DNA from: a bacterium
GTDB taxonomy: Bacteria > UBA8248 > JACPRG01 > G963555815
NCBI GenBank assembly: GCA_965218795.1
Contig: OZ244653.1
Coordinates: 160,001-224,000, forward strand
Length of the DNA: 64,000 bases
Direction: 5' to 3'
The notes beneath the pieces are model-generated. The model made no database searches. It was not told the origin of the DNA and saw nothing but the letters and a program-made list of their open reading frames with translations. Below, one piece after another: positions 24,286 through 63,238 of this stretch; within the stretch, counting starts at the first letter, position 1; every line of letters begins with the position of its first letter. The position numbers and the translations under genes were made by a program.

Positions 24286-24286
24286 T

Positions 24287-24909: not shown

Positions 24910-25059
24910 GACAATTCCTCATTCAGCCTTTCAATATATAGATCTGCCTTATTTTTGTCAATTATCAAGGAACTTCTTGTAATCTCCGCACCTTCGTAGC
25001 TCATCATCTGCCGGTCTCCCTTTCTCCCCGCCCCACTCGACACCGTTCCTTGTGCGCCG

Positions 25060-25254: not shown

Positions 25255-25255
25255 C

Positions 25256-26369: not shown

Positions 26370-26548
26370 GGCACCGCCCACTCACCATATTTAGCGGGAT
26401 TTTCTCGCACCCGGTGGTCCAACTTCGAGGGTAAGTGCCCCAGCGCCCGCTCCATTGGGTGGTCCAAATTTCGGGGAGCAGGTCAGTGTCGTTAGCACAC
26501 AAGCGTCCCGGTCTGCGAAGGAACGACCGCAATCACGGATCCGAGAGA

Positions 26549-42594: not shown

Positions 42595-45126
42595 GTGGAC
42601 TCCATTTTCGATTGGCCAGGCAAGTCCGACAACAATGACAACGAGCGCCCGGCAGTCCTGCACATGATGGATGTGGCGGCGTGCGCTGAACGACTAATCG
42701 ACGGGCACACGGCGTTCGGCGGACTCTCCGTGGCTCAGCGCCGCGCGCTGGTGATCCTGGTTGCACTCCACGATGTCGGCAAGTTGTCCGAGAGTTTCCG
42801 GGCCCTTATCCGCGCCGGCGAGAGGGGAGCACCGCCGCATTGGCAGCTCTCCGACTTTCTGTTGTGTGGGACCTTGGACGAGGTGCTGAGCAGACTCGGT
42901 GCCGATGAATGGGTGCGCACACAATTATACGCTGCCGTGGCCGGGCATCACGGACAGCCGCCGACGCGGGCAAGTGGTAATCGAACCGAGAGACGCAAGC
43001 GGCAGCATGCCGTCGGTAGCGGCAAAGAGGCGGCGCGAGAGTGGGCACTCCGACTGATGGAGGTGTTCCCGGACGCGTCGCTGGAAGGCATTACGTTCGA
43101 CGACGCCAAGGCGCTCAGCTGGGCGTTGAGCGGCCTCACTGTTGCCGCGGACTGGGTGGGCTCGAATACCGACTGGTTCCCGGTTGAGCCGGGCCTTCAC
43201 GATATTGAGGCAGCGCTTGCAGAATCGCGACGCCGCGCCGGTCGAGCGATTGAGTCAGCGGGTCTTGATCCGCCCTGTCCTGCACCGGTCGATGGCGACG
43301 CGCTCATCGGAGTGACCGAATTGCGACCGATGCAGCAGGCGGCATTAACGATTGGGCTGGAGGAAGGACCTCAACTGGCTGTTCTCGAAGACGCGACCGG
43401 CACCGGAAAGACCGAGGCAGCTCTCATCCTGGCCCATCGCATGATAGCGGCGGGCAAGGCGCGAGGGTTGTTTTTTGCGCTCCCCACCATGGCTACATCC
43501 AATGCTATGTTCGAGCGCATGAAAAAGATCGCGCCGGAATTGTTCAAGACTTGGCCGTCGATGGTGCTGACGCACAGCCGGGCGAAGCTAAGCGAAACTG
43601 TTCGGGGTTTGCGCGGAGCAAAGGCCGATGAAACCCCGGAGGCCGATGGCGCCGCTTGGCTTACGGACAACCGCCGACGATCGTTGCTGGCTACAGTGGG
43701 GGTTGGGACGGTCGATCAGGCGTTACTCGGCATCCTCCCCACCCGCTTCTCGACGCTCAGGCTGTTCGGCTTGGCGGACAAGGTGCTAATCGTCGACGAG
43801 GCCCACAGTTACGACCCCTATATGCAAGAGCAGTTGGAGACGTTGTTGAGAATGCAGGCCCAACTCGGCGGTTCGGCCATCCTGATGACTGCGACCCTGC
43901 CGTTGGAGATGCGCCGGGCGTACGTCAAAGCGTTCCGGGAGGGGATCGCGGCGAGAGCGGCAGACCTCTCGGCTATGTACTATCCCGGACTGCATCTTGT
44001 CGGTCGCGGGTTGTGCACCCAAGTCGTTGAGCCCCTGGCCGAGAGTGTTCGTACTGTCTCGGTCGTTCGGCTTCCGAGAGCGGATGATGCAATGGACCTG
44101 CTGAAGGAGGCGGCGGGAAGGGATGCGGCGTGCGTATGGGTGCGGAACGCCGTCGATGACGCCATCGAGACGGCCGAGGCATTGAGGCGGCGGGGAGTGA
44201 ATGTGGACCTGCTCCATGCCCGTTTCGCCATGGTCGACCGACTACGCCATGAACAGGCGCTGCTGGGCCGGTTTGGGAAGAATGGGTTAGGACGCGAGGG
44301 CCGGGTTCTGGTGGCGACGCAGGTGGTTGAGGCGTCGCTCGACCTCGACTTCGACGTTATGGTCTCAGATCTCGCGCCGATCGGCTCGCTGATCCAGAGA
44401 GCAGGCAGGCTTTGGCGACATATGGATGTGCGTCGCGAGGCCGTTCGTCCGTTCCCCGGCCCTATCTTGCACGTAATTTCGCCGGACCCGGAGAAGGTGG
44501 AAGGAGACGGCTGGCTTCACGACGTGCTCGATCGGGGGGCGTGGGTGTATCGACTCGACCACCAGTGGCGGACAGCGAAGGCGATGTTCGAGGCGGGCGA
44601 GATCGTCGCGCCGGACGGACTTCGCGTCTTGATTGAGACTGTACACGGCGAGGGGGAGTTACAGGTCCCCAAGTTACTCGAGGAGGCGCAGCAAAGGGCC
44701 GATGGCCAGGCAATGGCCGAGGCGGGATTGGCGCAGGTCAACGTGGTGGAAGGAGCGGCCGGTTATCTCACCGGAACCCGTGGCTCGGTCGGCAATGACG
44801 CGCTGTTTCCGACGCGCCTCGGGGAGCCGCAAGTGACGATGGTGCTGGCGCGACGCGACGGCGACCGCTTGCTTCCATGGGCTGAAGATGATGATCCGGC
44901 AGTGGCTTGGGCCTTGTCGGAGGTATCTGCCGCCCGTAAGCGATTCGAGCGCCTATTGCCGGATCAGGAAACGCCGGAAATCCGTGATGTCAAGGAAAAT
45001 TGGCCCGAATGGCGGCGTGAGGCCTACCATGTCTGCCCAGTCGACAAGGCTGGAGCGATTGGCGAAAGGATGCTATATGATTCCGAGCGAGGCCTCCATC
45101 TGTGCGCATTCCGTGACCCGTCTTGA
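42595..45126 (+). CDS. cas3: CRISPR-associated helicase/nuclease Cas3
   Basis: LHDVGK HD domain, AVAGHHG, TGTGKTE, VDEAH, ATQVVEASLDLDFD and QRAGR motifs. Confidence 0.95.
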   Translation: MDSIFDWPGKSDNNDNERPAVLHMMDVAACAERLIDGHTAFGGLSVAQRRALVILVALHDVGKLSESFRALIRAGERGAPPHWQLSDFLLCGTLDEVLSRLGADEWVRTQLYAAVAGHHGQPPTRASGNRTERRKRQHAVGSGKEAAREWALRLMEVFPDASLEGITFDDAKALSWALSGLTVAADWVGSNTDWFPVEPGLHDIEAALAESRRRAGRAIESAGLDPPCPAPVDGDALIGVTELRPMQQAALTIGLEEGPQLAVLEDATGTGKTEAALILAHRMIAAGKARGLFFALPTMATSNAMFERMKKIAPELFKTWPSMVLTHSRAKLSETVRGLRGAKADETPEADGAAWLTDNRRRSLLATVGVGTVDQALLGILPTRFSTLRLFGLADKVLIVDEAHSYDPYMQEQLETLLRMQAQLGGSAILMTATLPLEMRRAYVKAFREGIAARAADLSAMYYPGLHLVGRGLCTQVVEPLAESVRTVSVVRLPRADDAMDLLKEAAGRDAACVWVRNAVDDAIETAEALRRRGVNVDLLHARFAMVDRLRHEQALLGRFGKNGLGREGRVLVATQVVEASLDLDFDVMVSDLAPIGSLIQRAGRLWRHMDVRREAVRPFPGPILHVISPDPEKVEGDGWLHDVLDRGAWVYRLDHQWRTAKAMFEAGEIVAPDGLRVLIETVHGEGELQVPKLLEEAQQRADGQAMAEAGLAQVNVVEGAAGYLTGTRGSVGNDALFPTRLGEPQVTMVLARRDGDRLLPWAEDDDPAVAWALSEVSAARKRFERLLPDQETPEIRDVKENWPEWRREAYHVCPVDKAGAIGERMLYDSERGLHLCAFRDPS

Positions 45127-45210
45127 CGAAGCTGTTCCGCTTTTTCGTGACTTGGGACGTTGAGAATGAACCTTTAGTACTCTTCTGGCTGTCGTGCCCG
45201 GAGCCCCCGG

Positions 45211-46719
45211 ATGTCGTTGAACCTCATTACGGATTCATGGATTCCAGCCCTGCGGGGAGGGGACCGCGTCACCATCCGCCCTGATCAGATTGCCGAGTCC
45301 GGCGTCACCACTCTTGTCTGGCAGCGGGCGGATTTCAACCTCGCCTGTCTTGAACTCCTGATCGGGTTGATCTCGATGGCCGATCCGCCGAAGGACGAGG
45401 CCGACTGGTTCTCACGCCTCAACCAACCCGACGCCAAGCGACTCCGCGAGGCGCTGGCGCCGTTTGCGCCCTGCTTTGCACTCGCGGGGGACGGACCGCG
45501 CTTTCTTCAGGATCTGGAAGCCTTCGAGCAGGCGGCCAAACCTTCTGACATCAAGTTAGTGGACATGCTGTTCATCGATTCCGCCGGCGACTCGACCGCG
45601 TTAAAGAACGCCGATCTGATGGTCAGGCGTCACCGATTTGACACTCTCTCGCCCGCAGAGGCCGCAATGGCGCTCTACACGCTTCAGGCGTTCGCTCCAT
45701 CCGGCGGAGCGGGCAACCGGACTTCGATGCGCGGCGGCGGGCCGATGACGACGCTTGTCCAGCCCCTGGATGAGGAAGGCGGGCGCTTCACGTTGTGGCG
45801 GCTGGTCTTCGCTAACGTCCTTCCCAGAGCGCCACTCGCGGTGGAGGATGTGAAAGCCGCGCTGCCCTGGCTACGTCCGACGCGGACTTCGGAGAAAGAC
45901 CAGATCGTGACTCAGGAAGACGCGCACCCGCTGGAGGCGTTCTTCGGCATGCCCCGGCGGTTGAGGTTCGTATTCAGCAAGGAGGACCGGGTCGTGGGCG
46001 TGGTCCAAAGGCCCTACGGGACGAACTACGCGGCGTGGGAGCACCCCCTGACGCCATACTATCGCCAGAAGGAAGACGCCGCTGAATGGCTGCCGGCCCA
46101 CCCCAAGGCCGGACGTCTCAGCTACCGAAACTGGTTGGGGGTTACAATGGAACCCGGCCAGGAAGGAAAAGGGACTCGACGCACCGCTAGAACCGTCCGC
46201 GAGTGCCGCAACCGTTCCCGAACGCCGGACTTCGAGCTCATGGTCGGCGGTTGGACGATGGACAACATGAAACCCGTCAGTTTTTCGCTCGACAAGTACC
46301 CCGCTTTTCCGGGTCTGGGCCAGGACGGCGAGGACCGGGTTCGCCGATTCGTGGAGGCCGCGAACGCCGCTTCACGTGCCCTTCTCAAGCAGATCAAGGC
46401 CGCCTGTCGGCTTGCGGGTACGTCCTCCGATATGGTGGCCGATTCCTTCTTCGCCGAGACCGAGGAGGAATTCATGAGAACGGTTCGACGAATCATCGAT
46501 GGCACAGGGCCTGAAGTCGAGGAAGCATGGCATCGAACCCTCAAAGGTCGGACGCTTTGTATGTTTGACGAGCACGTCCTCGGCGGCCTCACCGACCGTA
46601 ACATCGCGGGGATCGAAAGTCGGATCATCGCCCGGCGCAACTTGCTCGCTACGCTGGTGAGGCAGGTTCGCAAGGAGATGGACCTGCCCCTACCCGGCAA
46701 GAAGGAGAAACAGGCATGA
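45211..46719 (+). CDS. casA: Type I-E Cas8e (Cse1/CasA)
   Basis: MSLNLITDSWIP, RFLQD, GGAGNRTSMRGGGP and HPLTPY motifs; position in the operon. Confidence 0.92.
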   Translation: MSLNLITDSWIPALRGGDRVTIRPDQIAESGVTTLVWQRADFNLACLELLIGLISMADPPKDEADWFSRLNQPDAKRLREALAPFAPCFALAGDGPRFLQDLEAFEQAAKPSDIKLVDMLFIDSAGDSTALKNADLMVRRHRFDTLSPAEAAMALYTLQAFAPSGGAGNRTSMRGGGPMTTLVQPLDEEGGRFTLWRLVFANVLPRAPLAVEDVKAALPWLRPTRTSEKDQIVTQEDAHPLEAFFGMPRRLRFVFSKEDRVVGVVQRPYGTNYAAWEHPLTPYYRQKEDAAEWLPAHPKAGRLSYRNWLGVTMEPGQEGKGTRRTARTVRECRNRSRTPDFELMVGGWTMDNMKPVSFSLDKYPAFPGLGQDGEDRVRRFVEAANAASRALLKQIKAACRLAGTSSDMVADSFFAETEEEFMRTVRRIIDGTGPEVEEAWHRTLKGRTLCMFDEHVLGGLTDRNIAGIESRIIARRNLLATLVRQVRKEMDLPLPGKKEKQA

Positions 46720-47228
46720 CTGTCGGTGGTGTGGTCATCGAATGGTGGCAGTTTTCGCTGCGTCAAGATGACGGTGGAGCGCGGGCCGCACGCGCCCGGC
46801 TGAGGCGTTGTGATTCGCCTGCTGAGGCGCTTGCGGTTTCCGAGACGCACGACCTCAACAGGCGGCTGAAGATGATCGGGAAAACCCCGACGCCCGATCA
46901 GCTGGCACTCCTCACCACGACTTTTGCCGGGCTCAGAGGCATTGACGGCGATAAGCTCGCGGCCCTGTTCGGGAAAAAGGAAAACAGGGATAGTCCGCCT
47001 ACGCTTAGCGAGCTGCGGTTCCAATCGTTGATTCGCATTCGCTCGCGCCGCGATTTGATGGCGCCGCTTCGTCGTTCCCTCGCGGTCCTTGGAGCCAACC
47101 CCGCCTGCGACGGACGAGCGTTGGCCGAAGATCTCTACTTCTGGAACGACGGGGTCCGCAATCGGTGGTGTTTTCAATACTTCGGCGCCGAGTTCGCCGT
47201 AACCAACCAAGAGGAGAGTGTTCAATAA
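46716..47228 (+). CDS. casB: Type I-E Cas11 (Cse2/CasB)
   Basis: RARLRRC and LSELRFQSL motifs; translationally coupled. Confidence 0.9.
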   Translation: MTVGGVVIEWWQFSLRQDDGGARAARARLRRCDSPAEALAVSETHDLNRRLKMIGKTPTPDQLALLTTTFAGLRGIDGDKLAALFGKKENRDSPPTLSELRFQSLIRIRSRRDLMAPLRRSLAVLGANPACDGRALAEDLYFWNDGVRNRWCFQYFGAEFAVTNQEESVQ

Positions 47229-48304
47229 TGCGCTTCGTGCAACTTCACTTCCTGACCGTCTATCCGCCCTCAAACCCCAACCGAGACGACATGGGCCGCC
47301 CGAAGACGGCGGTCTACGGGGGCGTTCATCGGCTTCGGCTGTCGTCGCAGTCATTGAAACGAGCGGCCCGCCTGTCGCCTGCCATGTCCGACGCCTTGAA
47401 GGGCAACATGGGCGAGCGCACCCAACGTCTTGGCGACGAGGTGATGAAGCATCTGCGCGAACGGGGCGCGGACGACGGGAAAGCTCGCGAAATCGCCAAA
47501 CAGGTGGCCGAGGTCTTCGGCAAGTTCGACACCGAGGCGGAAAAGAAAAACCCGGACCATATCCGTATCAGACAGTTGGCGTTCATTTCGCCCGATGAAC
47601 GTCAGGCAGCGATGGAGATGGCGGAGCGGGCCCTGGCCGGCGAATCCCTCGACAAGGAAACCGGGAACTGTAGCAAGGAAATCCTGCGTGCCGCCGACGG
47701 AGCGGTTGACCTCGCCATGTTCGGGCGCATGCTGGCCGATGCGCCGGATTTCAACCGAGAGGCTGCGGTGCAGGTTTCGCACGCCATCACGACGCACCAA
47801 GCTGAGGTGGAAGACGACTATTACACCGCCGCCGATGACCTGAAGAAACCGGCCGAGGACATGGGTGCGGGATTCGTCGGTGAGGCTGGGTTCGGGTCCG
47901 GCGTATATTACCTCTATGTCTGCGTTGATACCGTCCAGCTCGTGGAAAACCTCGCAGGTGATCGTGTGCTGGCACGAAAAGCACTGGAGGCGGTGACCGA
48001 AGCATTCGCCACCTCCAGTCCGTCCGGCAAGCGTAACAGCTACAGCCACCACACCCGCGCATCGTACATTCGTGCCGAGGCCGGAGACCAGCAACCGCGA
48101 AGTCTGGCGGCGGCGTTCTTAAACCCTGTCAAGGCGGATGACCTTCTCGGCGAATCCATCAACCGGCTCAAGAAGACGGTGGACGCTATTGACAAGGCGT
48201 ACGGCGCCTCGACCCACGAATCGGCGGAGATGGATCTGGCCAGCGGTTCCGGCGCCTTGGCCGAGATCAAGGCCTTTGTAGGCAGGCAGGTGGGCGATGC
48301 GTGA
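47228..48304 (+). CDS. cas7e: Type I-E Cas7 (Cse4/CasC)
   Basis: PSNPNRDDMGRPK, SSQSLKR, AMFGRM and EDDYYTA motifs. Confidence 0.95.
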   Translation: MRFVQLHFLTVYPPSNPNRDDMGRPKTAVYGGVHRLRLSSQSLKRAARLSPAMSDALKGNMGERTQRLGDEVMKHLRERGADDGKAREIAKQVAEVFGKFDTEAEKKNPDHIRIRQLAFISPDERQAAMEMAERALAGESLDKETGNCSKEILRAADGAVDLAMFGRMLADAPDFNREAAVQVSHAITTHQAEVEDDYYTAADDLKKPAEDMGAGFVGEAGFGSGVYYLYVCVDTVQLVENLAGDRVLARKALEAVTEAFATSSPSGKRNSYSHHTRASYIRAEAGDQQPRSLAAAFLNPVKADDLLGESINRLKKTVDAIDKAYGASTHESAEMDLASGSGALAEIKAFVGRQVGDA

Positions 48305-49031
48305 GCATTTGGTGTTCCTCCTATCCGGGCCCATGGCTTCGTTCGGCGGCTATGCCGGGCATGAACGTCGAGGGAGCGGGGTGGTCCCCATGCGTTCGGC
48401 GGTACTGGGGCTGTTGGGCGCGGCGCTCGGCATCAACCGGGCGGACGCCGAAGGTCAGGCGGCCCTTCGCGCGTATTCGGTGGCCGTGCAGCCGTTTCAA
48501 GAATCGGCACCGTTTAGGGATTACCACACGGTGCAAACGGTACCGACGGCTGGGGCCAAACGACCGCCAACCCGAAAACATGCACTAGCGCGCGTCGGAC
48601 GCGAGATCAATACGGTCATCACCATTCGCGATTACCGATGCGACGTTCTGATCGGGGTTGCACTTTGGGGCAATGGCCAGTGGACACTTGGCGATCTTTC
48701 CCTTCGCCTACGACGACCCGTGTTTCCCCTCTATCTCGGTCGTAAGTCATGCCCGTTGGCGAGCCCTCTCAACCCTGATGTGGTAATGGCGGCGGGGCCG
48801 GTCGAGGCGCTGGCTCGCATTGAAATCCCGGAGTGGCTGCGCCCCGAAAGGTGGTCCGAACAAGGGCGCGGGCGACACCCCGTCTACTCCGATCCGGTGG
48901 ACGGCCTTGACCCCCCGCCGTCGATAGAACAGGTCCCGGGCGAGCCGCTCGATCGTCAAGTCTGGACCTTCGGCGAGCGGAGCGTCTGGCACATGGGAGA
49001 CCACCGAAGCGGACCGAGGGGCGAGGCATGA
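48297..49031 (+). CDS. cas5e: Type I-E Cas5 (CasD)
   Basis: GPMASFG, SAVLGLLGAALG, DYHT and LYLGRKSC motifs. Confidence 0.95.
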   Translation: MREHLVFLLSGPMASFGGYAGHERRGSGVVPMRSAVLGLLGAALGINRADAEGQAALRAYSVAVQPFQESAPFRDYHTVQTVPTAGAKRPPTRKHALARVGREINTVITIRDYRCDVLIGVALWGNGQWTLGDLSLRLRRPVFPLYLGRKSCPLASPLNPDVVMAAGPVEALARIEIPEWLRPERWSEQGRGRHPVYSDPVDGLDPPPSIEQVPGEPLDRQVWTFGERSVWHMGDHRSGPRGEA

Positions 49032-49753
49032 CGCATTACCTGACCCGCGCTGTACTCAATCGAAAAGCGCCGGAACACGCGCTCAGGTCTTTGTTCGACC
49101 CACTGGACGCGGACGCGGCGTTCGATGCCCATCACCGGTTGATGTGGACGTTGTTCCCGGATCCCGATGCGAAGCGCGACTTCCTGTGGCGCGCTGACGA
49201 CAATGGCAAGTTCTTGATCCTCTCTGCCCGTGAACCGCAGGGCTCGCGCCTGTTCGAACCGCTTGAGTCCAAGCCCTTCGAACCGATGATGGCGGCGGGA
49301 GACCGGCTCGTGTTCATCTTGCGAGCCAACGCCACCAAGGACCGACGGTCCGGGCTGCAAGACGACGTCCCCCCAGGCACCAAGCGCAGGCCACGCAAGG
49401 ATCGCCGTGTCGATATAGTGATGCATGCGATGCGGGAACAGGGAATCAAAAGCGGGACCATCGGCGCCGATTCCCGCGTCTCCCGGCGCATGGATGTGGC
49501 CAGGGAGGCAGCGCAGGCGTGGCTCGCCGCTCAGGGTGAGCGCCGGGGTTTTTCGGTCGACGCGCTGGCGATCGAGGACTACCGAGTCTGCAAATTAAAG
49601 CGCCGGGGTGGCAAGGAGGCAACCTTCGGCGTGATTGATCTCAGGGGCCTGTTGTCCGTTCGAGACCCGAAGGCCTTCACCAGTGCGTTATTCACGGGTT
49701 TTGGCCGCTCCAAGGCCTACGGTTGCGGCCTGATGTTAGTGCGCCGCACCTGA
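49028..49753 (+). CDS. cas6e: Type I-E Cas6 (Cse3/CasE)
   Basis: HRLMWTLF, LRANAT and C-terminal GFGRSKAYGCGLM. Confidence 0.95.
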   Translation: MTHYLTRAVLNRKAPEHALRSLFDPLDADAAFDAHHRLMWTLFPDPDAKRDFLWRADDNGKFLILSAREPQGSRLFEPLESKPFEPMMAAGDRLVFILRANATKDRRSGLQDDVPPGTKRRPRKDRRVDIVMHAMREQGIKSGTIGADSRVSRRMDVAREAAQAWLAAQGERRGFSVDALAIEDYRVCKLKRRGGKEATFGVIDLRGLLSVRDPKAFTSALFTGFGRSKAYGCGLMLVRRT

Positions 49754-49768
49754 ATCGTCGTCATATCG

Positions 49769-52114
<2,346 letters not shown>

Positions 52115-52159
52115 GTCGCCTTTGAGCCCCGGGAATCTAGGGAGGAAACGACCGAGTAA

Positions 52160-52271
52160 GGAATGAGGAACCGCTAAAAGCCATGACCGAAGCTTTGAAC
52201 AAAGCTCGGAAAAAATCGGTAACCCAGGGCGATGCCGAATATGGCTTTTGAATCAATAGGTTCCAGGAAGT
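52160..52271 (+). promoter_or_regulatory. CRISPR leader with IHF-like site
   Basis: AT-richer segment. AATCAATAGGTTC (52251-52263) resembles WATCAANNNNTTR and lies just upstream of repeat 1. Confidence 0.7.
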
Positions 52272-53886
52272 ATGTTCCCCGCCCACGCGGGGATGAACCG
52301 TAATCCTCCTCAATGTGCAAGGCTATGACCTCATGTTCCCCGCCCACGCGGGGATGAACCGAAGGGTTCGGCGACGCGCCATTGAGTACCCGAATGTTCC
52401 CCGCCCACGCGGGGATGAACCGCCAGGGTAGAAACTCCGTGGCCCGCTCCGGGTATGTTCCCCGCCCACGCGGGGATGAACCGGTGCTCCGCAGACCCGA
52501 ATCGTACGTGGCGAGATGTTCCCCGCCCACGCGGGGATGAACCGGGCATGAGCAAAACCCATTTCGCCAGAGAAATATGTTCCCCGCCCACGCGGGGATG
52601 AACCGATACGGATGGGCGATTACTTGGCGGACCCATGATGTTCCCCGCCCACGCGGGGATGAACCGACGGCATGCTGAAGGAGTAAGGCGAATGACAGAT
52701 GTTCCCCGCCCACGCGGGGATGAACCGTGGCAGGTCATTGTATCCGATGAGGTTATCGAATGTTCCCCGCCCACGCGGGGATGAACCGATTGAAGGAGGT
52801 AGAAAATGCAGGGAAACGGGATGTTCCCCGCCCACGCGGGGATGAACCGACTGGGAAAATCGGACGGGTCAACGTTATTCGATGTTCCCCGCCCACGCGG
52901 GGATGAACCGACGGGAACCATCCGCCATAGACGCTGAGGATTATGTTCCCCGCCCACGCGGGGATGAACCGTTATTCAGATACGCTTTGTTTATTGCAAT
53001 CTTATGTTCCCCGCCCACGCGGGGATGAACCGTCTGGTGCCCTTTCATCCGGACCGGTGAGAAGATGTTCCCCGCCCACGCGGGGATGAACCGAATATCA
53101 ATTAGATTTAATGAATCAAGTCGTAATGTTCCCCGCCCACGCGGGGATGAACCGAAGAATATCCGTACTCACAAAGGAGGTGAACCATGTTCCCCGCCCA
53201 CGCGGGGATGAACCGACCGGCAAGATTGGAAGGGTCAACGTGATCAGATGTTCCCCGCCCACGCGGGGATGAACCGGGTTCAAGAGAAGTAGACAAAGTG
53301 CCTATGCGATGTTCCCCGCCCACGCGGGGATGAACCGTATTCGGGTCATCCAAGTTCAAGGCGGCTGCAATGTTCCCCGCCCACGCGGGGATGAACCGTC
53401 GCTTCCTGAGGCTTCCCTGAGCTTCATTAAATGTTCCCCGCCCACGCGGGGATGAACCGATTTACACCTGGTATCGTGATGCAGTTCTCCGATGTTCCCC
53501 GCCCACGCGGGGATGAACCGAAAGAAACTGCTCAATAAGAATATCCTCACTCATGTTCCCCGCCCACGCGGGGATGAACCGGAGGTCGCCCACATCCAGG
53601 CCGGCGCTGGCCGATGTTCCCCGCCCACGCGGGGATGAACCGTCCGTCCAGCGCCTTGTCGCTCCCGCACCTCGATGTTCCCCGCCCACGCGGGGATGAA
53701 CCGGAGGTGATGATGTGGCTTATCACCCGCCTCTGATGTTCCCCGCCCACGCGGGGATGAACCGACAGGAACCGGCTTGACATTCGCCCGTTTAAAATGT
53801 TCCCCGCCCACGCGGGGATGAACCGTGGCAGAAGCGATCTTTGAAGTGATCGCCCATATGTTCCCCGCCCACGTGGGGATGAACCG
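52272..53886 (+). CRISPR. Type I-E array: 27 x 29-bp repeat ATGTTCCCCGCCCACGCGGGGATGAACCG, 26 x 32-bp spacers
   Basis: Exact 61-bp period. The last repeat carries one C>T change in the stem. Confidence 0.99.
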
Positions 53887-54194
53887 ACGAGGGCCGCGAG
53901 TGAGACGGACTTGGGGGCCGAGAAGGTGAGGTCCTGCCTGGGCCGGAGATGGAAGTCGCCCTCCTTGCCCCTGCGTCCGAGCCTGCGGCCGGAGCCGTCG
54001 GGCACCTTGCCCTCCAGGACCGCCTGGAAGAGGTGGGGATCGACCGGGCCTTCGAGTCCGAGGTCCGCAGCACCCCTGCCGGCCCAGACGCTCGCCTGCC
54101 GGTGGGCTAGGTCGTCCCTGGCGTAGTAGCCGTCCTTTTCGTAATAGAAGACGCCCTGGGAGGCCGAGGCCACGGCGCCGATCGAGACGACCAC
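53887..54194 (-). pseudogene. MOBF relaxase N-terminal fragment truncated at the last CRISPR repeat
   Basis: FYYEKDGYY, WAGRG and QDLTFSAPKSVSLAALVG, then repeat sequence. Confidence 0.9.
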
Positions 54195-54195
54195 G

Positions 54196-56210
54196 TCAGA
54201 TCCGCCTCAAACGGCCCTGATGGGGTTTCCGTTGCGGCTCCGTGCTGTTCCCGCTCTTCCCCGGAAGCGAAGGGGCCGGATCGGCCGTACCCGTCTCGTC
54301 CTTTTCGGATTGCCTGTGGGGCCGCCTCGCGGCTTCTCCATGGGGTGTCGCTGAGGCCTGCCCGGATTCCCTCGCCTCGACTTCTTCCCGCGTCCCCTGT
54401 CCGGAACTCCGGGGATGCCTGAGCTTGAGCTCCCCTTGCCGGTCTCCGGTTGCGTCCGCTCCTTCCGATGCCTCCTCCCTGGGCACGAACCGTTCCGCCG
54501 CCCTGGGCCTGTGGACGTAGTCCAGCCCAATCCGGGCCACGGGCCAGGGTCCGGGGAACTTCAGGTACCCCTGCAGGTTCTCAAGCCGCATGATCTCCGA
54601 CGGCAGGGCCAGGGAGCGCATCTCCCGGCGCTGGGTCAGCGACACCCCGTCACGCAGCACGCTCGCCCCGTAGCTCAACCCGTGGGAGTATTCCTCCACC
54701 TCGCCCCGACCCAGGCTCTCGGCCGACCACCGGGCCGTCTCCTGGTCGGGCGCGGCCAGGACCACCCGGGTCCCGCACAGCCCGGAGATCGTCTCCGCCC
54801 CGTTCTTTCCGTAGAGGTCGCGCAAGGCCGAGATCACCTGGATCCCGAGCACGAAGCACCCTCCGAACTGGCGGGACTCGGCCAGGCCGGGCTGGAGGCT
54901 CGGCACCTGGTGGAGGGTGGGCAGCTCGTCCAGGACCACCCAGACCCTTCTGGCGTCGTCCTGATGGAGGGAGAGAAGGGCGTTCACCGCGATCTCCAGC
55001 CAGGTGGAGATGAGCCCCCTCAGGCTCGCGTGCTGGTCCCCCCTCGATGTCAGGAACAGGAACCCGGTCCCGTCCTCTCGGCTTACCCACTCCCGGATGG
55101 AGAAGGGCTCGCCCGTATCGGGCAGGTATTCCAATGCTCCCAGGTGGGCGGTCAGCATGGCCCGGACCGACAGGGCGGTCTTGGGGTTTTCGGGGTCCAC
55201 GATGGACTGGGCCACCGTGCCCTCCATGGCTTCGGCCAGGGATGTCAGGTCGGTCTTGAGCAAATGGTCGACCAGGACCCGGTTCCGGGTCTCCCCCTGC
55301 TTCCAGAGCCCGCCCGCGCCGTTGGCGAACAGCTGCCTGGCCGCCGTGACCCAGAAGGGGTCCACCGTGTCCTTCTGCTGGGGGATGAGGGCGGCCGCCA
55401 TCATGTCGAAGTCCCGGGGGGCGTCCCGGCCTCGTAGAAGGGAGACCAGCAGGGGGCCCGGGTATCGAGGGGGTTCATCAGCACGTCCCGGGCCGGATCG
55501 AAGAAGGAGCGGGTATAGCTCCCCATCTTGTCGTAGAGGATGCAGCGCTCGCCCCGGGCGCGGATCCGGGCGACGAGGTCGGAGATCAGGACGGTCTTGC
55601 CCGAGCCTGTGGTGCCCGAAACGATGGTGTGCTGGGTCTCGGCTCTCTTGGGCCAGGGGATCCCGGCGATGCGGGGGGAGGATCTACGCGCCTTGGGAGA
55701 CAAAGCCTCCATAAGACGCACGGACAGGGGCCGGACGCGCCTTCTCAGGTCCCGTGCCGTGGCCATCTCCGCTCCCCGGACCCTTTTGGCCCGGTCCAGG
55801 CGCCTTCCCCGGACAGAGAACAGGACCGCGCACAGGGCCATGCCCCCCGTTCCGAGCCACAGGCCGAGCCAAGCCTTTGAGTAGATCGTATGGAGCAGGC
55901 GTCTTCGGATCCTTTCGATCCTGGGGTCATTGGCGATATCCACGATCCTCAGGAGTGTCGTTTTGCCTTCCCTCCACTCGTACTTCTGGAGGGAGTGGCG
56001 GGAATACCCCAGTGCGAGCTTGGCCTGGGCGAGGGTGCCCGTTCCCACCAGGCGCCATTCATGGGCGGTGGTGGTTCGGAAGAGAGCTACGGAAGGGACC
56101 AGGACGATTGTCAGCGCGATGCCCAAAAGTCCCCACCTGACCAGCTGGCCCCACATGTGGACGTCGTGGGCCAGGGTCTGGCCGCCCCGGAGCGTGGCGT
56201 TGCCGAACAT
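54196..56210 (-). pseudogene. traD: TraD/TrwB-type type IV coupling protein, frameshifted at ~55416-55421
   Basis: GTTGSGKT, YDKMG, NPLDTR, LDELPTL and ESRQFGG motifs. AAGGAGG ribosome-binding site. Split at a C6 run. Confidence 0.88.
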
Positions 56211-57376: not shown

Positions 57377-60300
57377 TCACCAGCGGATCGTGCCGCGCAG
57401 CATCAAGCCGTGCTCGGGCGCGTCGTCGTTGGCCGGCTCGCTGCGCGTGCCTTCGAGGCTGAACGTCACGTCCGGCGCCACCAGCCAGCGCGCGCCCGTG
57501 CGCCATGACCGCCCGCCGCCGTCGGCCAGCGAGAGCCCCGCATAGGGCGTCACCAGCCCGAGGCCGCGCGGCACGCCCAGACCGTAGCCGAGCTCGGCCT
57601 CCAGACGGCGCTCCGCCTCGAACGCTTCCTCACGCACCAGCCCCGCCGCGTCGCGCGCCGACCACAGACGCTCCACGCCGCTCGACGGCGTCCCCCACAC
57701 CGGCGCCAGCGTCAGCGAGAGGCCCCGCCCCGAGGCGCCTGGGTCGAACCGCACCGAGCCGCCCGCGCCCCACTCCTCGTAAGACCCGTCCTCGTGCGCG
57801 ATGAGCGCGCGAACGCTCGCCTCCACCGTCAGGCCCGAGCCCGCGTCGGCGAAGCGGATCCGCCCGCCGACCTCGATTCCGGTCCCCGTCTCCGCGTCAC
57901 CGCCGTCGTGGCGCAGGCCCACCTCCAGGCCCGGCGTCAGCGCCACGCCCTCGCCCAGCGCGAACGCCCGCCCGGCCTCCAGCACCAGCCGCAGCCGGCT
58001 CGCATCGGCCTTCGTGGCCACCGTGTTCGCCGCCTTCTCCGACTCCATCCGCACCCAGAACGCGTCGCCGCGAAGCGCCAGGTCGATCCCGCCGGTCTCG
58101 CCCGCCTCCAGCACCGCGCCCCGCGCACCCGCGGCGCCGAGTCGCATCGAGAGGTCGGTGCGCACGGACGAGTTGCCCCGGACCGTCATGTCGCCCGTGC
58201 CGTAGCCCAGGAGGCCCCAGGCCGAGAGCCGATCGCTCAGCGTCACCCGCACGTAGGGGTTCACGCTCGTGAGCGTGCTCTCGATCTTGCCCGAATCCAC
58301 GTCCGGCTGGTCGAAGGCGCCCTTGCCCCTGCTCACCGAGACCGCCACGCCCGCGAGCCAGCGCTCCCATTGGGCGTCGGCACCCAGGATCCCGGTCGTC
58401 ACCTCGCCGTCCAGGCGCACCTTGCCCTTGTCGGCCGGCGCCTTGGCGTCAAAGCCGCCCACCGTCACCCGGCCCCAGGCCGCGAAGCCCGGTCCCCCGT
58501 CCTCGCCGCTCCCGGCCGTAAGGTGGAACGAGCTGCCGAGCAGAAGCTCGCGCCCGGTCAGGGTCCGCGACGTGGCGCCGGCCGTGTCCAGGTCCGCCCG
58601 GGAGCCGGACCGCGCCTCAACGTCTTCCGCGCCCGGGGCCCCGGCAAGCGCCCGCCGGGCGTCGACGGTCCCGGCCGACAGGTCGATGCTCCGACCGCCC
58701 AGCGTCACCCGCGAGCCCTGGGGCGGACCTGACAGGCGTCCGGACACCGCGTCCACCACCTGGCCCGCCACCGTGCGCCCGAAGCGCGACAGCCACATCT
58801 TCTGCAACGGATCGGAGTTCTCGATGGCGCCCGTCGCGACCCCGTCGGCGATCACCGCCCCCGAGGCGCTCGTGAGCCGGAGCGTGAAGGTCTCCTCGCC
58901 CTCGTCCACCGCGTCGTCCAGCACCGGCACCGAGACCGTCTTCGCCGTCTCGCCCGGATCGAAGCTGAGCGCGCCGCCGCTGCGCGTATAGTCCTCGCCC
59001 GCGGTCGCCGTCCCGTCGGCGGTCGCATAGGCCACCGCCACCGTCACCGATGCCGCCCGGCTCAGCGTCACCGCGAAGTCGATGGTCTCGTCCGCGCCTT
59101 CCCTGGCCCGCGCGTCCGCCACCGACACCGCCACAGGACCCCGCACCGTCGTCGAGATGGTGTTCGACAGCGCGCGGCCGTCCGACGTGCAGACCGCCGC
59201 CGGGGTCCGGCAGGCCGCCCCGGCCGCGAGCGTCACCGTCACGTCCGCCAGCGAGTCCGGCTCGACCGTCACCTGCCACAGGTCCCGGCGCCGGTCCACC
59301 CGGCTGGCCGACGTCGCCCGGCCCCCGGCCACCGCCACCACGTCCTCGCGCAACCGCCGGCCGTTCATCCACCCGATCCGCTCGCTGAACGCGATCCTGA
59401 ACGTGAACGCGCTCTCCCCGTCATGCTCCGCCGGCACGTCCTCGAACGACGCCGTCAGCGGCGCCTCCTCCGGGTCCGTGTTCGACTCCCGCGCCTCGTC
59501 GTTCCGAATCGTGCCCACCGCCTCGTAGTTCTTGACGCTCGCGCCGGTGACATTGCTCAGCAGCAGCTTGAACGTCTCCCCGCCGTCTTCATCCGCGTCG
59601 TCCCGGATCGGCACCTCCACCGTCTTCTCGTACTCGCCCCGGGCAAACGTCAGCGTGCCGCGCGTCTCCGTGTAGTCGGATCCCGCCTCCGCCGTGACAT
59701 CCTTCGTCCGGTAGGCAAACGTCACGCCTTCCTCACCCGGAACCCCGTCCAGTTTCACCACGAAGTTCAGGGTCGCGTCCTCGCCCTCCATCGCCTCGGC
59801 ACCGGCCACCGACAGCGCCGCGCGCTGCGCGTACTGCACCGCGCCCAGGTGACCCAGCTCCGCATCGTAGCCCCGCTCGTTGCGGACCGTGGCGCCGTTC
59901 GAGGCCAGCGTGTCGGCCACCACCTCCACCGCGCCCACCCGGCCGTCGCCGGCCGTGACCTCGTACTCGAACACCAGCGTGTTCTTTCCCGAACCGCTCA
60001 CGTACGACGCCCTGCGCGGTTGCTCGCGGTCCTCCCGGTCGCCCAGCAGCAGATCGATTGTCGGGGTGCCCCCGGTATCGTCCACCACCACCTTGTCCCG
60101 GTTCTCCGGCTCGTCGGGGGGCGTATACGGCACCGGACCCGAGAACCGGACCTTCACCCGCACCTTCTCGCCCGCCGTCCACGCGCGCCCGCTTCTGTCC
60201 ACGGTGACCTGCATCACCCGCGTGTTCGTGTACCTCGAGGCGCCGTCCCCGCCCTCCAGCGTGCGGATCGTCGCGCCCCACAGCAGCAAGCCGTCGTCCG

Positions 60301-63238
60301 CCGCCCACGCGCCCCGCGCGCCGTCCTCGGCCGCGCCCACCGTGTAGGCGAACCTCAGCGTGTCCGTCTCCGAGCCGCCCACATACGGCGCCAGCGGCGT
60401 CGACAGGGATTGGCCGTACCCCGGGCGCGCGTCGGATCTGAACGCCACCAACATGTACGGGCCCGACGGCCGGCAGGTCCCGTCGGCGTTGTAGGTCCAG
60501 CATTCCGACTTCTCCACCACCACCGGCTTGTCATAGCGCACCTCGACCACGACACGCTCCCCGGTGCTCCATACCCCGTCCGCGACCGGGCCGCTCACCA
60601 CCGTCACGCTGCGGATGGTCGCCGGCTCGAACGGCGAGACGTCGTCGTCGATGATCGTGCCCGTCGCCCCCGGGTCTCCAATCTGTGAGTTCGACGACAG
60701 GTTCGACAGCCGCACCGTGAAGGTCTCGTTCTCCTCGTCGGTGGCGTCGTCGGCCGTCGCGACGTTGAACGTTCCTGTCCTCGACCCCGCCGCGACCGTC
60801 ACCGTCCCTCTCGTGGTCGACCCGAGATCCGCCGCCGCCGCCGTGTCGCCGCGTTCGATCGAGGCCGTCCAGTCCGCCGTCACGTCCGTCCCGGTCGTCT
60901 TCGAGAGCTGCACCGTGAAGGTCATGTCCTCGCCCTCCTCGGCCTGCGCGTCCCACACGCTCACCAAAGTCAGCTTCGGCACCGTGACCGTGTAGGTGGC
61001 CGTCCCCTGGTTGTAGTCGGCGCTCGACGCCGCGGTGGCGGTAATCACGCACTCGCCCACTCCCGCGAGCGTCAGGGCGCCCGTGGACGGGTCCACCGTG
61101 CACACACCCTCGGGCGCCGCCGAGTAGCTCAAGGTGGTCTGCACCCCGGTAGGGGGGGTGACGGTCGGAGCGGTGTCGCCATGGGTCACCGAGGCGGGGC
61201 TGTAGGCGAACCCCGTCAGCGTCTGGTCCCCCTTGGCCACCGCCGGGAAGGTGATGTCGACCGTGGCGGTGTTGCCGGCGGTGTCGGTCACCGTCACCGT
61301 GGCGGCGGCGGTGTTCGCGTCGGCCGTGTCCGGCGTCCCGTCGATGACCCCGGTGCCGGTGTCGATGTCCAGCCCCGGCGGCAGGCCCGTGGCGCCGTAG
61401 GAGGCGATGTCGGCGTCCGCGGTGCTCGGCGTCATGGCGCCGACGGCCACCCCCACCTGCAGCGACGAGGGCGCCGTGTAGGTCGCCGAAGGCGCCGCCA
61501 GGTCCACCGCGAGAGTGCGCGTCACGTCGCTCGGCGCCGTGTACCCGGTCTTGCTCGCGCTCACCGTCACCGCCACGCTCGTGCCGGTGAGGTAGGCCGC
61601 GTTCGCCGCCGCGTCCACCGACCAGGCGCCGGCGGCGGTCGAGGTCGCCGTCAGCTCCGTCGTGCCCACCGTCACGGTGACACTCACACCCCCCTGCGAG
61701 CCGGTGGCGCCCGAGATCGCGAACCCCGCCGCCTTCTCGGCGATGTTCACCGTGTCGTCACCGGCGATGGTGTCGAGGATCAGCGCCAGCGCCCCGGCCG
61801 CCTGCACCGTGACGGTGAACGCCGCGGTGGCCTCGTTGTAGTTGGCGGCGCCTGCCGCGGTGGCGGTGATGTTGCAGGCGCCCACCTCCACCAGGGTCAG
61901 GGCGCCCGTGGACGGGTCCACCGTGCACACCGTGGCCGGCGTGGCCGAGTACGCCAGGGTGGTCTGCACCCCGCCCGGCGCCGTCACCGCCGGGACGGTG
62001 TCGCCATAGGTCACCGTGGCGGGGCTGTAGGCGAACCCCGTCAGCGTCTGGTCCCCCTTGGCCACCGCCGGGAAGGTGATGTCGACCGTGGCGGTGTTGC
62101 CGGCGGTGTCGGTCACCGTCACCGTGGCGGCGGCGGTGTTCGCGTCGGCCGTGTCCGGCGTCCCGTCGATGACCCCGGTGCCGGTGTCGATGTCCAGCCC
62201 CGGCGGCAGGCCCGTGGCGCCGTAGGAGGCGATGTCGGCGTCCGCGGTGCTCGGCGTCATGGCGCCGACGGCCACCCCCACCTGCAGCGACGAGGGCGCC
62301 GTGTAGGTCGCCGAAGGCGCCGCCAGGTCCACCGCGAGAGTGCGCGTCACGTCGCTCGGCGCCGTGTACCCGGTCTTGCTCGCGCTCACCGTCACCGCCA
62401 CGCTCGTGCCGGTGAGGTAGGCCGCGTTCGCCGCCGCGTCCACCGACCAGGCGCCGGCGGCGGTCGAGGTCGCCGTCAGCTCCGTCGTGCCCACCGTCAC
62501 GGTGACACTCACACCCCCCTGCGAGCCGGTGGCGCCCGAGATCGCGAACCCCGCCGCCTTCTCGGCGATGTTCACCGTGTCGTCACCGGCGATCGCGTCG
62601 AGGGTCAGCGCCAGCGCCCCGGCCGCCTGCACCGTGACGGTGAACGCCGCGGTGGCCTCGTTGTAGTTGGCGGCGCCTGCCGCGGTGGCGGTGATGTTGC
62701 AGGCGCCCACCTCCACCAGGGTCAGGGCGCCCGTGGACGGGTCCACCGTGCACACCGTGGCCGGCGTGGCCGAGTACGCCAGGGTGGTCTGCACCCCGCC
62801 CGGCGCCGTCACCGCCGGGACGGTGTCGCCATAGGTCACCGTGGCGGGGCTGTAGGCGAACCCCGTCAGCGTCTGGTCCCCCTTGGCCACCGCCGGGAAG
62901 GTGATGTCGACCGTGGCGGTGTTGCCGGCGGTGTCGGTCACCGTCACCGTGGCGGCGGCGGTGTTCGCGTCGGCCGTGTCCGGCGTCCCGTCGATGACCC
63001 CGGTGCCGGTGTCGATGTCCAGCCCCGGCGGCAGGCCCGTGGCGCCGTAGGAGGCGATGTCGGCGTCCGCGGTGCTCGGCGTCATGGCGCCGACGGCCAC
63101 CCCCACCTGCAGCGACGAGGGCGCCGTGTAGGTCGCCGAAGGCGCCGCCAGGTCCACCGCGAGAGTGCGCGTCACGTCGCTCGGCGCCGTGTACCCGGTC
63201 TTGCTCGCGCTCACCGTCACCGCCACGCTCGTGCCGGT
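57377..63238 (-). CDS. Giant autotransporter adhesin, 3' part (Ig-like repeats, Calx-beta domains, beta-barrel)
   Basis: [17 protein letters not shown] Ig repeats; several Calx-beta motifs ([23 protein letters not shown]); WLSRFGRT; C-terminal ...LRGTIRW. Confidence 0.88.
61193..63238 (-). repeat. 825-bp near-identical tandem repeat, about 2.5 copies
   Basis: The GTGCCGGT anchor recurs at 61581, 62406 and 63231. Only a few substitutions separate the copies. Confidence 0.92.

What the first reader, a model, noticed from the sequence alone, without database searches (positions are those of the whole stretch)
52850..53247. Two spacers encode the same peptide with only synonymous differences
Spacer 10 (52850-52881) reads ACT GGG AAA ATC GGA CGG GTC AAC GTT ATT CG. 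Spacer 16 (53216-53247) reads ACC GGC AAG ATT GGA AGG GTC AAC GTG ATC AG. They share the same register and differ at 8 of 32 positions, yet both read TGKIGRVNVI(R). An AAG PAM would be an in-frame Lys codon. Inference: the spacers were acquired independently at one PAM from two diverged relatives of the same invader gene under strong purifying selection, recording synonymous escape and re-immunisation.
Basis: partly seen in the sequence, partly recalled or inferred. Interest (0 to 1): 0.7.

Follow-up and report, generated by a model that had tools for sequence, protein, structure and literature searches.

The report
Two spacers, one microvirus capsid site
Two spacers in a bacterial CRISPR array were captured from the same conserved spot in the coat-protein gene of two different small single-stranded DNA phages, a neat but not unprecedented record of repeated encounters with one phage group.

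Summary
Spacers 10 and 16 of a 26-spacer type I-E array match at 24 of 32 bases in register. All 8 differences are synonymous in one frame (about 6 in 100,000 by simulation).

I found the target gene family. The peptide (K)TGKIGRVNVI(R) is codons 11-22 of the major capsid protein F of an uncultivated, phiX174-like group of microviruses. Lys precedes the site in most relatives, and the codon is AAG in 12 of 22 genomes.

Spacer 17, which is next to spacer 16, also comes from conserved F motifs. Spacer 20 probably does too.

No exact protospacer exists in any collection searched, so the two source viruses are inferred, not seen.

Eight of 11 codons differ between the two spacers. That equals synonymous saturation and matches what relatives with under 70% F identity show. 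The sources are therefore most likely two distinct viruses, not a virus and its escape mutant.

"Same gene, same PAM, two diverged relatives" is supported. "Synonymous escape and re-immunisation" is not.

Three of the 8 differences fall on guide positions that Cascade does not pair. One of the other five lies in the seed. The older spacer could plausibly have primed capture of the newer one, but this is untested.

This is a new member of a known kind and of moderate interest.

The parts
42595..50969 (+). Type I-E cas operon: cas3, cse1/cas8e, cse2/cas11, cas7, cas5, cas6e, cas1, cas2
   Evidence: Pfam matches above the curated cut-off for all eight ORFs; ORF coordinates.
50979..52115 (+). IS630-type (DDE_3 plus HTH) transposase gene lying between cas2 and the array leader
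   Evidence: Pfam DDE_3 9.1e-23 and HTH_23/HTH_32. No terminal inverted repeats of 14 nt or more were found.
52116..52271 (+). Leader-like stretch upstream of the first repeat
   Evidence: GC is 0.51 over 52100-52249, against 0.605 for the genome. No sigma-70-like promoter match. Its role as leader is inferred from position only.
52272..53886 (+). CRISPR array: 27 repeats of 29 nt and 26 spacers of 32 nt; the only array with this repeat in the genome
52850..52881 (+). Spacer 10 (the newer of the pair). It reads TGKIGRVNVI(R), which corresponds to codons 12-22 of microvirus capsid protein F.
   Evidence: Peptide score 47 against F proteins, above all 1000 shuffles. Best DNA identity to a relative's site is 25 of 32 (L013, L117).
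53216..53247 (+). Spacer 16 (the older of the pair). Same site and same peptide, with 8 synonymous differences from spacer 10.
   Evidence: Best DNA identity to a relative's site is 23 of 32 (L024, L029). An exact repeat-spacer 16-repeat contig is present in run X6.
53277..53308 (+). Spacer 17, next to spacer 16. It reads GSREVDKVPM(R), which corresponds to F codons 209-219 (conserved GSREVD[QK]VP motif).
   Evidence: Score 51 against 140 F proteins, above all 1000 shuffles, with an exact 10-mer in P0018. Site alignment.
53460..53491 (+). Spacer 20, probably F-derived. It reads IYTWYRDAVL(R), which corresponds to F codons 107-117, the motif just before RIYNEWY.
   Evidence: Score 39, p=0.005 uncorrected for 26 spacers tested. 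It matches the homologous position in several loci, and the trailing CG fits the conserved Arg or Lys that follows.
52606..52637 (+). Spacer 6, only possibly F-derived. IRMGDYLADP resembles the F motif LGDY[LMV][VA]D.
   Evidence: p=0.033 uncorrected. The preceding residue is Ser in 19 of 20 relatives, so no AAG PAM is seen there. Not counted as a hit.
53643..53674 (+). Spacer 23, only possibly from the ORF after F (G-like). SVQRLVA... resembles its C-terminal motif S[VI]QR[LM].
   Evidence: The motif was found in 12 of 20 loci. The peptide score is not significant, p=0.17. Not counted as a hit.
53858..53886 (+). Degenerate terminal repeat (one C>T change), marking the trailer (old) end

Best explanation
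Spacers 10 and 16 are two separate captures of the homologous protospacer. That protospacer covers codons 12-22 of the major capsid protein (F) gene, directly after an in-frame Lys codon read as an AAG PAM. The captures came from two distinct, long-diverged members of an uncultivated phiX174-like microvirus clade that this bacterium meets repeatedly. Spacer 16 is older, being farther from the leader. The adjacent spacer 17 and probably spacer 20 come from other conserved motifs of the same gene.

The guides have the sense of the mRNA. In phiX174-type phages that is also the sense of the packaged strand (recalled textbook knowledge). They can therefore pair only with the complementary strand of the double-stranded replicative form, which is also the only form a type I-E Cascade/Cas3 system attacks.

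The identical peptide with saturated synonymous change reflects extreme conservation of this N-terminal capsid motif, not an arms race at this site.

What is shown: the array, the cas genes, the frame, the gene family, and the conservation of the Lys codon. What is inferred: that the PAM is AAG, that there were two source viruses, the direction of time in the array, and the stage of attack.
For: 1. The system is type I-E, with 29/32-nt repeat-spacer units.

2. The all-synonymous pattern is far from chance: 122 of 2,000,000 simulated cases in any frame.

3. An 8-residue degenerate pattern found 7 places in the viral contigs. One of them, L008, carries AAG plus KTGKIGRVNVLR at codons 11-22 of a 420-aa ORF. 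That ORF matches Pfam Phage_F (1.5e-16, 60.7 bits against a cut-off of 25) and phrog_514 major head protein. It sits on a 5,420-nt contig that also has a replication initiator and a scaffolding-like gene. It aligns to phage G4 gpF over residues 8-350 (E 5e-21).

4. Twenty-two related genomes carry the site. The peptide there is K[TS]GKIGRVN[CV][ILV]R, and the codon before it is AAG in 12 and AAA in 10. Lys precedes the motif in 182 of the 189 motif-bearing proteins among 207 F relatives.

5. Independent spacers hit the same gene. Spacers 10, 16 and 17 score above all 1000 shuffles against 140 F proteins, and spacer 20 has p=0.005. The same three also exceed all 300 shuffles against six-frame translations of 21 loci.

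6. Divergence calibration. The 17 pairs of relatives that differ at 8 of 32 bases at this site have F identity of 50-67% (median 58%). Pairs with the identical peptide and at least 7 differences have 64-67%. Codons differ at 68% of same-residue positions when F identity is under 70%, and at 35% when it is 90% or more. The observed value is 8 of 11.
Against: No exact or near-exact protospacer was found.
- The full degenerate pattern for TGKIGRVNVI gave 0 hits in viral, genome and metagenome contigs. It matched only the spacers themselves in the own genome.
- It matched nothing else in the 6 other genomes of the family and order.
- The exact 10-mer occurs in 0 of 207 F relatives listed.
- Patterns for spacers 17 and 20 gave 0 hits in viral contigs.
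- The closest DNA sites match only 25 of 32 bases (spacer 10) and 23 of 32 (spacer 16).

The 'two viruses' conclusion therefore rests on 11 codons and a calibration from relatives. F pairs that are 96-98% identical already differ at 3-4 of the 32 bases, so a long-lived single lineage is not excluded.

L008 was found with a pattern built from the peptide, so 8 of its matching residues are there by construction. The independent support is the flanking residues, the frame, the gene context and spacers 17 and 20.

The AAG PAM of this system is inferred from relatives and from E. coli, not measured. No member of the host's phylum (0 of 51 genomes) carries an F gene, so there is no prophage link.
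Confidence: 0.85

Rival explanations
1. Primed updating. The older spacer 16 still guided Cascade weakly to a diverged relative. That triggered primed adaptation, and the same AAG site was re-captured in its new spelling as spacer 10. This is a sub-mechanism that can coexist with the best explanation; it explains why the same site was hit twice.
For: Three of the 8 differences (positions 6, 12, 30) fall on guide positions that do not pair in E. coli Cascade (passage in PMC6212716). That leaves 5 effective mismatches, one of them (position 3) in the seed 1-5, 7, 8 (seed as given in the figure legend read). [quoted passage not shown] Spacer 16 is older than spacer 10. Spacers 16 and 17 are adjacent and hit one gene. 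All three independent F sites lie on the same strand. A chance repeat of one site is not likely: genomes of this clade have 54-102 AAG on the coding strand and 48-167 on the other.
Against: Nothing here shows priming. The neighbours of spacer 10 (spacers 9 and 11) show no similarity to any microvirus protein, though non-conserved targets would not be detectable. Three sites on one strand is a small sample. Behaviour of this Cascade is extrapolated from E. coli. Undetected microvirus spacers in the array would raise the chance of a coincidental repeat.
Confidence: 0.3
2. One reading: one viral lineage escaped spacer 16 by synonymous changes and the host then re-immunised at the same site.
For: Same site, same PAM position, only synonymous change. 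The older-to-newer order fits.
Against: One seed or PAM change suffices for escape, yet 8 of 11 codons differ. That is the saturation level (7.75 or 7.5 expected) and about twice the 3.8 seen between relatives with F at least 90% identical. From those frequencies, my own arithmetic gives about 0.012 for 8 or more of 11 at a rate of 0.35. Three of the changes are at positions the guide does not read, so they cannot have been selected as escape.
Confidence: 0.08
3. The target is not a microvirus but some cellular or plasmid gene that happens to encode a similar peptide.
For: Spacer 16 matches an Arthrobacter megaplasmid at 27 of 31 bases (E 0.06). That place reads LTGKIGRVTGTI in frame. A Jannaschia rhaS gene reads AGKIGEVNVTG.
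Against: Those three plasmid places lie in non-homologous contexts. None has AAG before the site (CTC, CCC, GAT), and their peptides depart after 7-8 residues. E values are 0.06 to 9. The F family matches 11 of 12 residues including the Lys in 24 of 207 members, and two further spacers hit the same protein.
Confidence: 0.03
4. Duplication of a spacer inside the array, followed by drift.
For: Same length and register.
Against: Spacers are not translated, so drift would not be confined to synonymous positions of one frame (20 of 2,000,000 in frame +0). All flanking repeats are identical. The peptide is a conserved viral motif.
Confidence: 0.005

Closest known systems
Legionella pneumophila CRISPR spacers against Gokushovirinae (Deecker et al., bioRxiv 10.1101/2021.03.08.434514; abstract and sections 17 and 19 read)
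   Same: Arrays of a bacterium with no known phage record repeated encounters with microviruses. Most spacers map to the conserved major capsid gene (25 of 35 there). Adjacent microvirus spacers were read as multiple exposures or priming. The authors note that conserved regions are over-represented among detectable hits.
   Different: There the systems are types I-C, I-F and II-B and the targets are gokushoviruses. Here the system is type I-E and the target is a phiX174-like clade. In the sections I read I saw no report of two spacers from the homologous site differing only synonymously. I did not read the whole text, and supplements are closed.
Primed adaptation in E. coli type I-E (Kunne et al. 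2018, PMC6212716, passages read; Fineran 2014 and Semenova 2011 appear in its reference list and are otherwise recalled)
   Same: Same subtype and same repeat/spacer geometry. Guide positions 6, 12, 18, 24 and 30 do not pair. Mismatched old spacers can drive capture of new ones from the same element.
   Different: Priming is shown there by experiment. Here it is only a plausible route. Re-capture of the very same protospacer from a diverged relative is not something I found described: searches returned one paper each, neither on this.
Register of Tn7-CRISPR (I-F3) homing guides (Petassi et al., bioRxiv 10.1101/2020.07.02.184150, passages read)
   Same: Guides to conserved genes sit in the reading-frame register where every sixth, unpaired guide position falls on a codon wobble position, which buffers synonymous variation. 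Spacers 10, 16, 17 and 20 are all in that register.
   Different: Those are transposon homing guides to host genes, not defence spacers. The authors only presume that 'any guide RNA would benefit'. Here the sample is 3 independent sites against a null of 33% (260 of 782 AAG sites), p=0.037.
phiX174/G4 (Bullavirinae) and Eel River basin pequenoviruses, i.e. Suborder I of Kirchberger et al. 2022 (PMC9239249, passages read)
   Same: The target clade has genomes of about 5-5.6 kb and an F of about 420-430 aa, as in phiX174, without the long gokushovirus insertion. Gene order is Rep, then a D-like scaffold, F, a G-sized ORF and an H-sized ORF. A 122-aa ORF is overprinted on Rep.
   Different: F is only 20-23% identical to the nearest named phages. 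Pfam gpD is below its cut-off (18.3 against 25 bits). The G-like and H-like ORFs match no family. The CRISPR-implied host is not an enterobacterium.

Membership tests
Type I-E CRISPR-Cas | Gene set cas3 (HD plus helicase), cse1/cas8e, cse2/cas11, cas7, cas5, cas6e, cas1, cas2 (CT1978 type) | tested here: met
   All eight ORFs exceed the Pfam cut-offs, in that order, on the + strand.
Type I-E CRISPR-Cas | 29-nt repeat, 32-nt spacers, repeat ending in ...AACCG | tested here: met
   The likeness to the E. coli repeat is recalled, not tested. Rfam gave no match.
Type I-E CRISPR-Cas | 5' AAG-type PAM next to the protospacer | tested here: inconclusive
   No exact protospacer was found. At the homologous site AAG occurs in 12 of 22 relatives and AAA in 10. 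At the spacer 17 and spacer 20 sites AAG occurs in 1 of 20 each.
Microvirus major capsid protein F/VP1 (Pfam PF02305) as the target | The target ORF matches the family model and solved F structures | tested here: met
   For relative L013: PF02305 at 60.7 bits (cut-off 25), phrog_514, and G4 gpF at 5e-21. PF02305 is precomputed on all 207 listed relatives.
Microvirus major capsid protein F/VP1 (Pfam PF02305) as the target | The spacers match the gene at DNA level (exact protospacer) | tested here: not met
   The best matches are 25 of 32 and 23 of 32, with 0 exact hits in all collections. Membership of the true targets is inferred from peptide matches above all 1000 shuffles.
Bullavirinae / Suborder I microviruses (for the target clade) | External scaffolding protein and spike protein, the hallmarks named in PMC9239249 | tested here: inconclusive
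   The 159-aa ORF before F matches phrog_1386 'head morphogenesis' at 2.5e-13, but Pfam gpD is below cut-off. The roughly 172-aa ORF after F has no family match. F identity to named members is 20-23%.
Primed adaptation | An older, partly matching spacer against the same element; new spacers from the same strand; clustering in the array | tested here: inconclusive
   Spacer 16 is older and has 5 effective mismatches. Three of 3 sites lie on one strand. Spacers 16 and 17 are adjacent. The process itself cannot be tested with these tools.

The most novel reading that the evidence does not exclude
The array may preserve a natural case of spacer updating. An old guide (16), blunted by synonymous drift in a diverged microvirus, still primed adaptation, and the same Lys-AAG protospacer was re-captured in its new spelling (10). 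All capsid-derived spacers also sit in the one register where Cascade's unpaired sixth positions fall on codon wobble positions. Type I defence arrays may therefore preferentially keep, or acquire, guides in that register against conserved viral genes. So far this has been noted only for Tn7-CRISPR homing guides.
Probability: 0.15. Interest if true: 0.6.

Novelty: new member of a known kind. Interest (0 to 1): 0.4.

Why it matters
It links a sizeable uncultivated phiX174-like microvirus group to a bacterial host. The group has 347 and 361 F proteins at E no greater than 1e-30 in the two searches. The host belongs to a small, poorly sampled phylum with 51 species genomes held, none carrying the virus.

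It is also a clean natural example of how a type I-E array re-samples one conserved capsid site from diverged relatives. And it yields a testable idea about the reading-frame register of defence guides.

It does not reveal a new mechanism. Repeated targeting of conserved microvirus capsid genes and priming are both known.

Tried and rejected
Searches for the exact protospacers
- The back-translated pattern for TGKIGRVNVI matched only the spacers themselves in the own genome.
- The same pattern found 0 hits in viral contigs, genome contigs and metagenome contigs.
- With 2 mismatches allowed, it matched nothing else in the 6 other genomes of the family and order.
- blastn of spacer 10 against phages found no match. 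Spacer 16 against phages found 7 records, all at E of 3 or more and covering at most 69%.
- Against plasmids, spacer 10 found 4 records at E=9 and spacer 16 found 7 records, best E 0.06.
- I fetched the three longest plasmid hits. They lie in unrelated contexts, none has AAG, and I rejected them.

Other searches that led nowhere
- The whole array as a query against phages and plasmids returned only repeat-to-repeat matches with other arrays.
- Six of the 7 viral hits to the 8-residue pattern sat in unrelated or stop-ridden contexts and were dropped.
- Back-translated patterns for spacer 17 and spacer 20 found 0 viral hits.
- A second locus search with a 14-protein alignment added only 2 new viral loci.
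- No spacer resembles the microvirus Rep protein (120 proteins, minimum p 0.07).
- Spacers 6 and 23 have suggestive but non-significant likenesses and are not counted.

Naming the host failed
- A UbiD look-up gave only 'Pseudomonadota commonest'.
- The conjugative region found no plasmid match.
- An RpoB scan gave at most 64% identity among the best 80 of over 600 matches, spread over Nitrospirota, Thermodesulfobacteriota, Myxococcota and Acidobacteriota.

Smaller negative results
- Rfam found no family on the array.
- No promoter-like site was found in the leader.
- No inverted repeats were found around the transposase.

Sequencing runs
- Runs X1-X3 held about 0.05 of the sampled words. X2, when laid, showed only repeat-level pieces with other spacers, so no habitat is claimed.
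- Parts of the array without a listed contig in X4-X6 are not evidence of absence.

- Supplements of the papers were not seen. The host tables of PMC9239249 and the spacer tables of the Legionella preprint may bear on whether this clade or this kind of spacer pair is already listed.
Full report
What is there

The finding lies in a CRISPR array at 52272-53886: 27 repeats of 29 nt and 26 spacers of 32 nt, with a 61-nt period. Twenty-six repeats are identical and the last has one C>T change. Upstream on the same strand is a complete type I-E operon: cas3, cse1, cse2, cas7, cas5, cas6e, cas1 and cas2, all above the Pfam cut-offs. An IS630-type transposase gene (50979-52115) sits between cas2 and a lower-GC leader-like stretch. 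It is the only array with this repeat in the 5.17-Mb genome. The degenerate repeat at the far end and the cas operon at the near end put the newest spacers at 52301 onward. Spacer 16 is therefore older than spacer 10. That order is an inference from how type I-E arrays grow.

The observation

Spacer 10 (52850-52881) and spacer 16 (53216-53247) share 24 of 32 bases in register. The next best of all pairs, strands and shifts is 18 of 31. P is 1.4e-6 over 325 pairs. The differences are at positions 3, 6, 9, 12, 16, 27, 30 and 31. Only frame +0 gives the same peptide, TGKIGRVNVI; the other five frames give 3-7 changes. Eight random substitutions were all synonymous in frame +0 in 20 of 2,000,000 trials and in any open frame in 122 of 2,000,000. 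Drift of a duplicated spacer inside the array is excluded, because spacers are not translated.

Finding the target

The full back-translated pattern found nothing outside the array in any of these:
- the own genome;
- viral, genome or metagenome contigs;
- the other 6 genomes of the host's family and order.

blastn against phages and plasmids gave only chance-level hits. I fetched the three longest plasmid hits. They lie in unrelated genes without AAG.

A shorter pattern for GKIGRVNV found 7 places in the viral contigs. Six were in unrelated contexts. One, L008 (5,420 nt, a whole contig), reads AAG followed by a 32-mer that encodes TGKIGRVNVLR, at codons 11-22 of a 420-aa ORF. That ORF matches Pfam Phage_F (1.5e-16) and phrog_514. 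The contig also encodes a replication initiator and a scaffolding-like protein, all on one strand. The ORF aligns with phage G4 gpF over residues 8-350, and the spacer peptide lies opposite G4's AGKIGRLKTIS.

Because L008 was found with a pattern made from the peptide, the independent evidence is:
- the flanking residues (Lys as AAG before the site, Thr, Arg after it);
- the frame;
- the gene context;
- the further spacers described below.

The clade

Locus searches gave 22 related genomes that carry the site. One further record is a duplicate of L015, and one is a permuted copy that lacks the N-terminus. The peptide is K[TS]GKIGRVN[CV][ILV]R. The codon before it is AAG in 12 genomes and AAA in 10.

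Protein searches found 347 and 361 relatives at E no greater than 1e-30, and 207 distinct ones were listed. Nearly all sit on contigs of about 2-7 kb. Lys precedes the motif in 182 of the 189 that carry the motif. Twenty-four of 207 match KTGKIGRVNVIR at 11 of 12 positions, and none exactly.

The nearest named phages are a Ciona-associated microvirus and the Eel River pequenoviruses (23%) and phiX174-type phages (about 21%). Gene order is Rep (with a 122-aa ORF overprinted in another frame), a 159-aa D-like ORF, F, a roughly 172-aa ORF and a 250-335-aa ORF. This is the phiX174 layout. Kirchberger et al. name the external scaffold and the spike as hallmarks of their Suborder I (passages). I leave membership open because the D-like match is weak and the later ORFs match nothing.

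More spacers from the same gene

I translated all 26 spacers in six frames and scored them without gaps.
- Against six-frame translations of 21 loci, spacers 10, 16 and 17 scored 47, above the maximum of 41 in 300 shuffles.
- Against 140 F proteins, the scores were 47, 47 and 51, above the maximum of 42 in 1000 shuffles.

Spacer 17 (GSREVDKVPM) is the conserved GSREVD[QK]VP motif at F codons 209-219, and it is adjacent to spacer 16. Spacer 20 (IYTWYRDAVL) fits the motif before RIYNEWY at codons 107-117, with p=0.005 uncorrected for 26 tests. Its last two bases fit the Arg that follows. Spacers 6 and 23 are only suggestive. No spacer resembles Rep.

Only conserved motifs are detectable with relatives this distant. 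More spacers may therefore come from these viruses. The Legionella study reports the same bias (section 19).

Escape or two viruses?

Eight of the 11 codons differ.
- With equal use of synonymous codons, 7.75 would differ at saturation.
- Relatives with F under 70% identical differ at 68% of same-residue codons at this site, which gives 7.5 of 11.
- Relatives with F at least 90% identical differ at 35%, which gives 3.8 of 11.
- The 17 pairs of relatives that differ at 8 of 32 bases have F identity of 50-67%.

The two sources are therefore most likely distinct viruses, not a virus and its recent escape mutant. The caveat is that 11 codons is a small sample, and F pairs that are 96-98% identical already differ at 3-4 bases.

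How it likely works

All F-derived guides have the sense of the coding strand. In phiX174-type phages that is also the packaged strand (recalled textbook knowledge). The guides can therefore pair only with the complementary strand of the replicative form, which is the double-stranded target a type I-E system needs.

Positions 6, 12 and 30 of the 8 differences are positions that do not pair in E. coli Cascade (passage). Five effective mismatches remain, one of them in the seed (position 3). By E. coli rules, guide 16 would probably fail to destroy the virus that gave spacer 10 but could still prime adaptation.

A chance repeat of one site among 54-102 plus 48-167 AAG sites per genome is not likely for a handful of spacers. 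Priming, acquisition hot spots, or longer retention of guides against invariant motifs are the candidate reasons. None is tested here.

All three independent sites are in the register where the unpaired sixth positions fall on wobble positions. The null is 260 of 782 AAG sites, or 33%, giving p=0.037. Petassi et al. described this register for Tn7-CRISPR homing guides (passages).

Host and population

The host's phylum holds 51 species genomes in the collection, and none has an F gene. Its RpoB is at most 64% identical to the best 80 named matches, so I could not name the host. Three runs of one study hold 0.60, 0.27 and 0.21 of the array's sampled words. One holds an exact repeat-spacer 16-repeat contig, and all show other spacers between the same repeats.

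Verdict

The 'synonymous escape' story is not supported. Repeated targeting of conserved microvirus capsid genes is known from Legionella. This case adds a type I-E host, a phiX174-like target clade and a clean homologous spacer pair.

Noticed in passing
window 50979-52115 and 25255-26532: Two IS630-type (DDE_3 plus HTH) transposase genes. One sits exactly between cas2 and the array leader, so it may separate the array from upstream signals. No terminal inverted repeats of 14 nt or more were found around it.
   Followed up: partly
window 54196-56210 (- strand): A TrwB/TraD-type conjugative coupling protein is split into two adjacent ORFs (55401-56210 covers profile positions 3-87; 54196-55404 covers 93-386). 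This suggests a frameshifted or broken gene. It begins about 300 nt after the array's last repeat.
   Followed up: partly
window 12958-32567: Island-like content upstream of the cas operon: a Z1/ResIII-domain protein, two tyrosine integrases with Arm-DNA-bind_3 domains in divergent orientation, and a 980-aa UvrD-type helicase with a C-terminal topoisomerase zinc ribbon.
   Followed up: no
window 57377-63226 (- strand): A 1,949-aa open frame that overlaps several + strand ORFs of 240-722 aa. I did not determine which of these is real.
   Followed up: no
L013, L014, L021, L025, L027, L028, L031, L032, L116 (e.g. L025:1066-1431): In 9 of the 11 microvirus loci examined, a 122-aa ORF lies inside the Rep gene in another frame. 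This recalls gene B overprinted on gene A in phiX174. Homology was not tested.
   Followed up: no
L013, L021, L022, L025-L028, L034: In this sub-group AAG is about half as frequent on the coding strand (54-92) as on the other strand (108-167). L014 and L031-L033 show the reverse. Whether this is codon usage or PAM avoidance was not examined.
   Followed up: no
12 of 20 microvirus loci, C-terminus of the ORF after F (e.g. L028:2950-3000): A conserved C-terminal motif, S[VI]QR[LM]..KPPQ[YF]ASA[VS]S, ends the roughly 172-185-aa G-like ORF. Spacer 23 (53643-53674) shares SVQRLVA with it, but not significantly.
   Followed up: partly
runs X2, X4, X5, X6 laid on window 52100-53900: Many contigs join this array's repeats to other 32-nt spacers. 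Arrays with the same repeat and different spacer content therefore coexist in those samples. X2, a groundwater metagenome, shares only repeat-level pieces.
   Followed up: partly
window 46716-47228 and 47165-48304: The listed cse2 and cas7 ORFs overlap by 64 nt. The cas7 start (GTG at 47165) is probably called too far upstream, since its Pfam match begins at residue 25.
   Followed up: no
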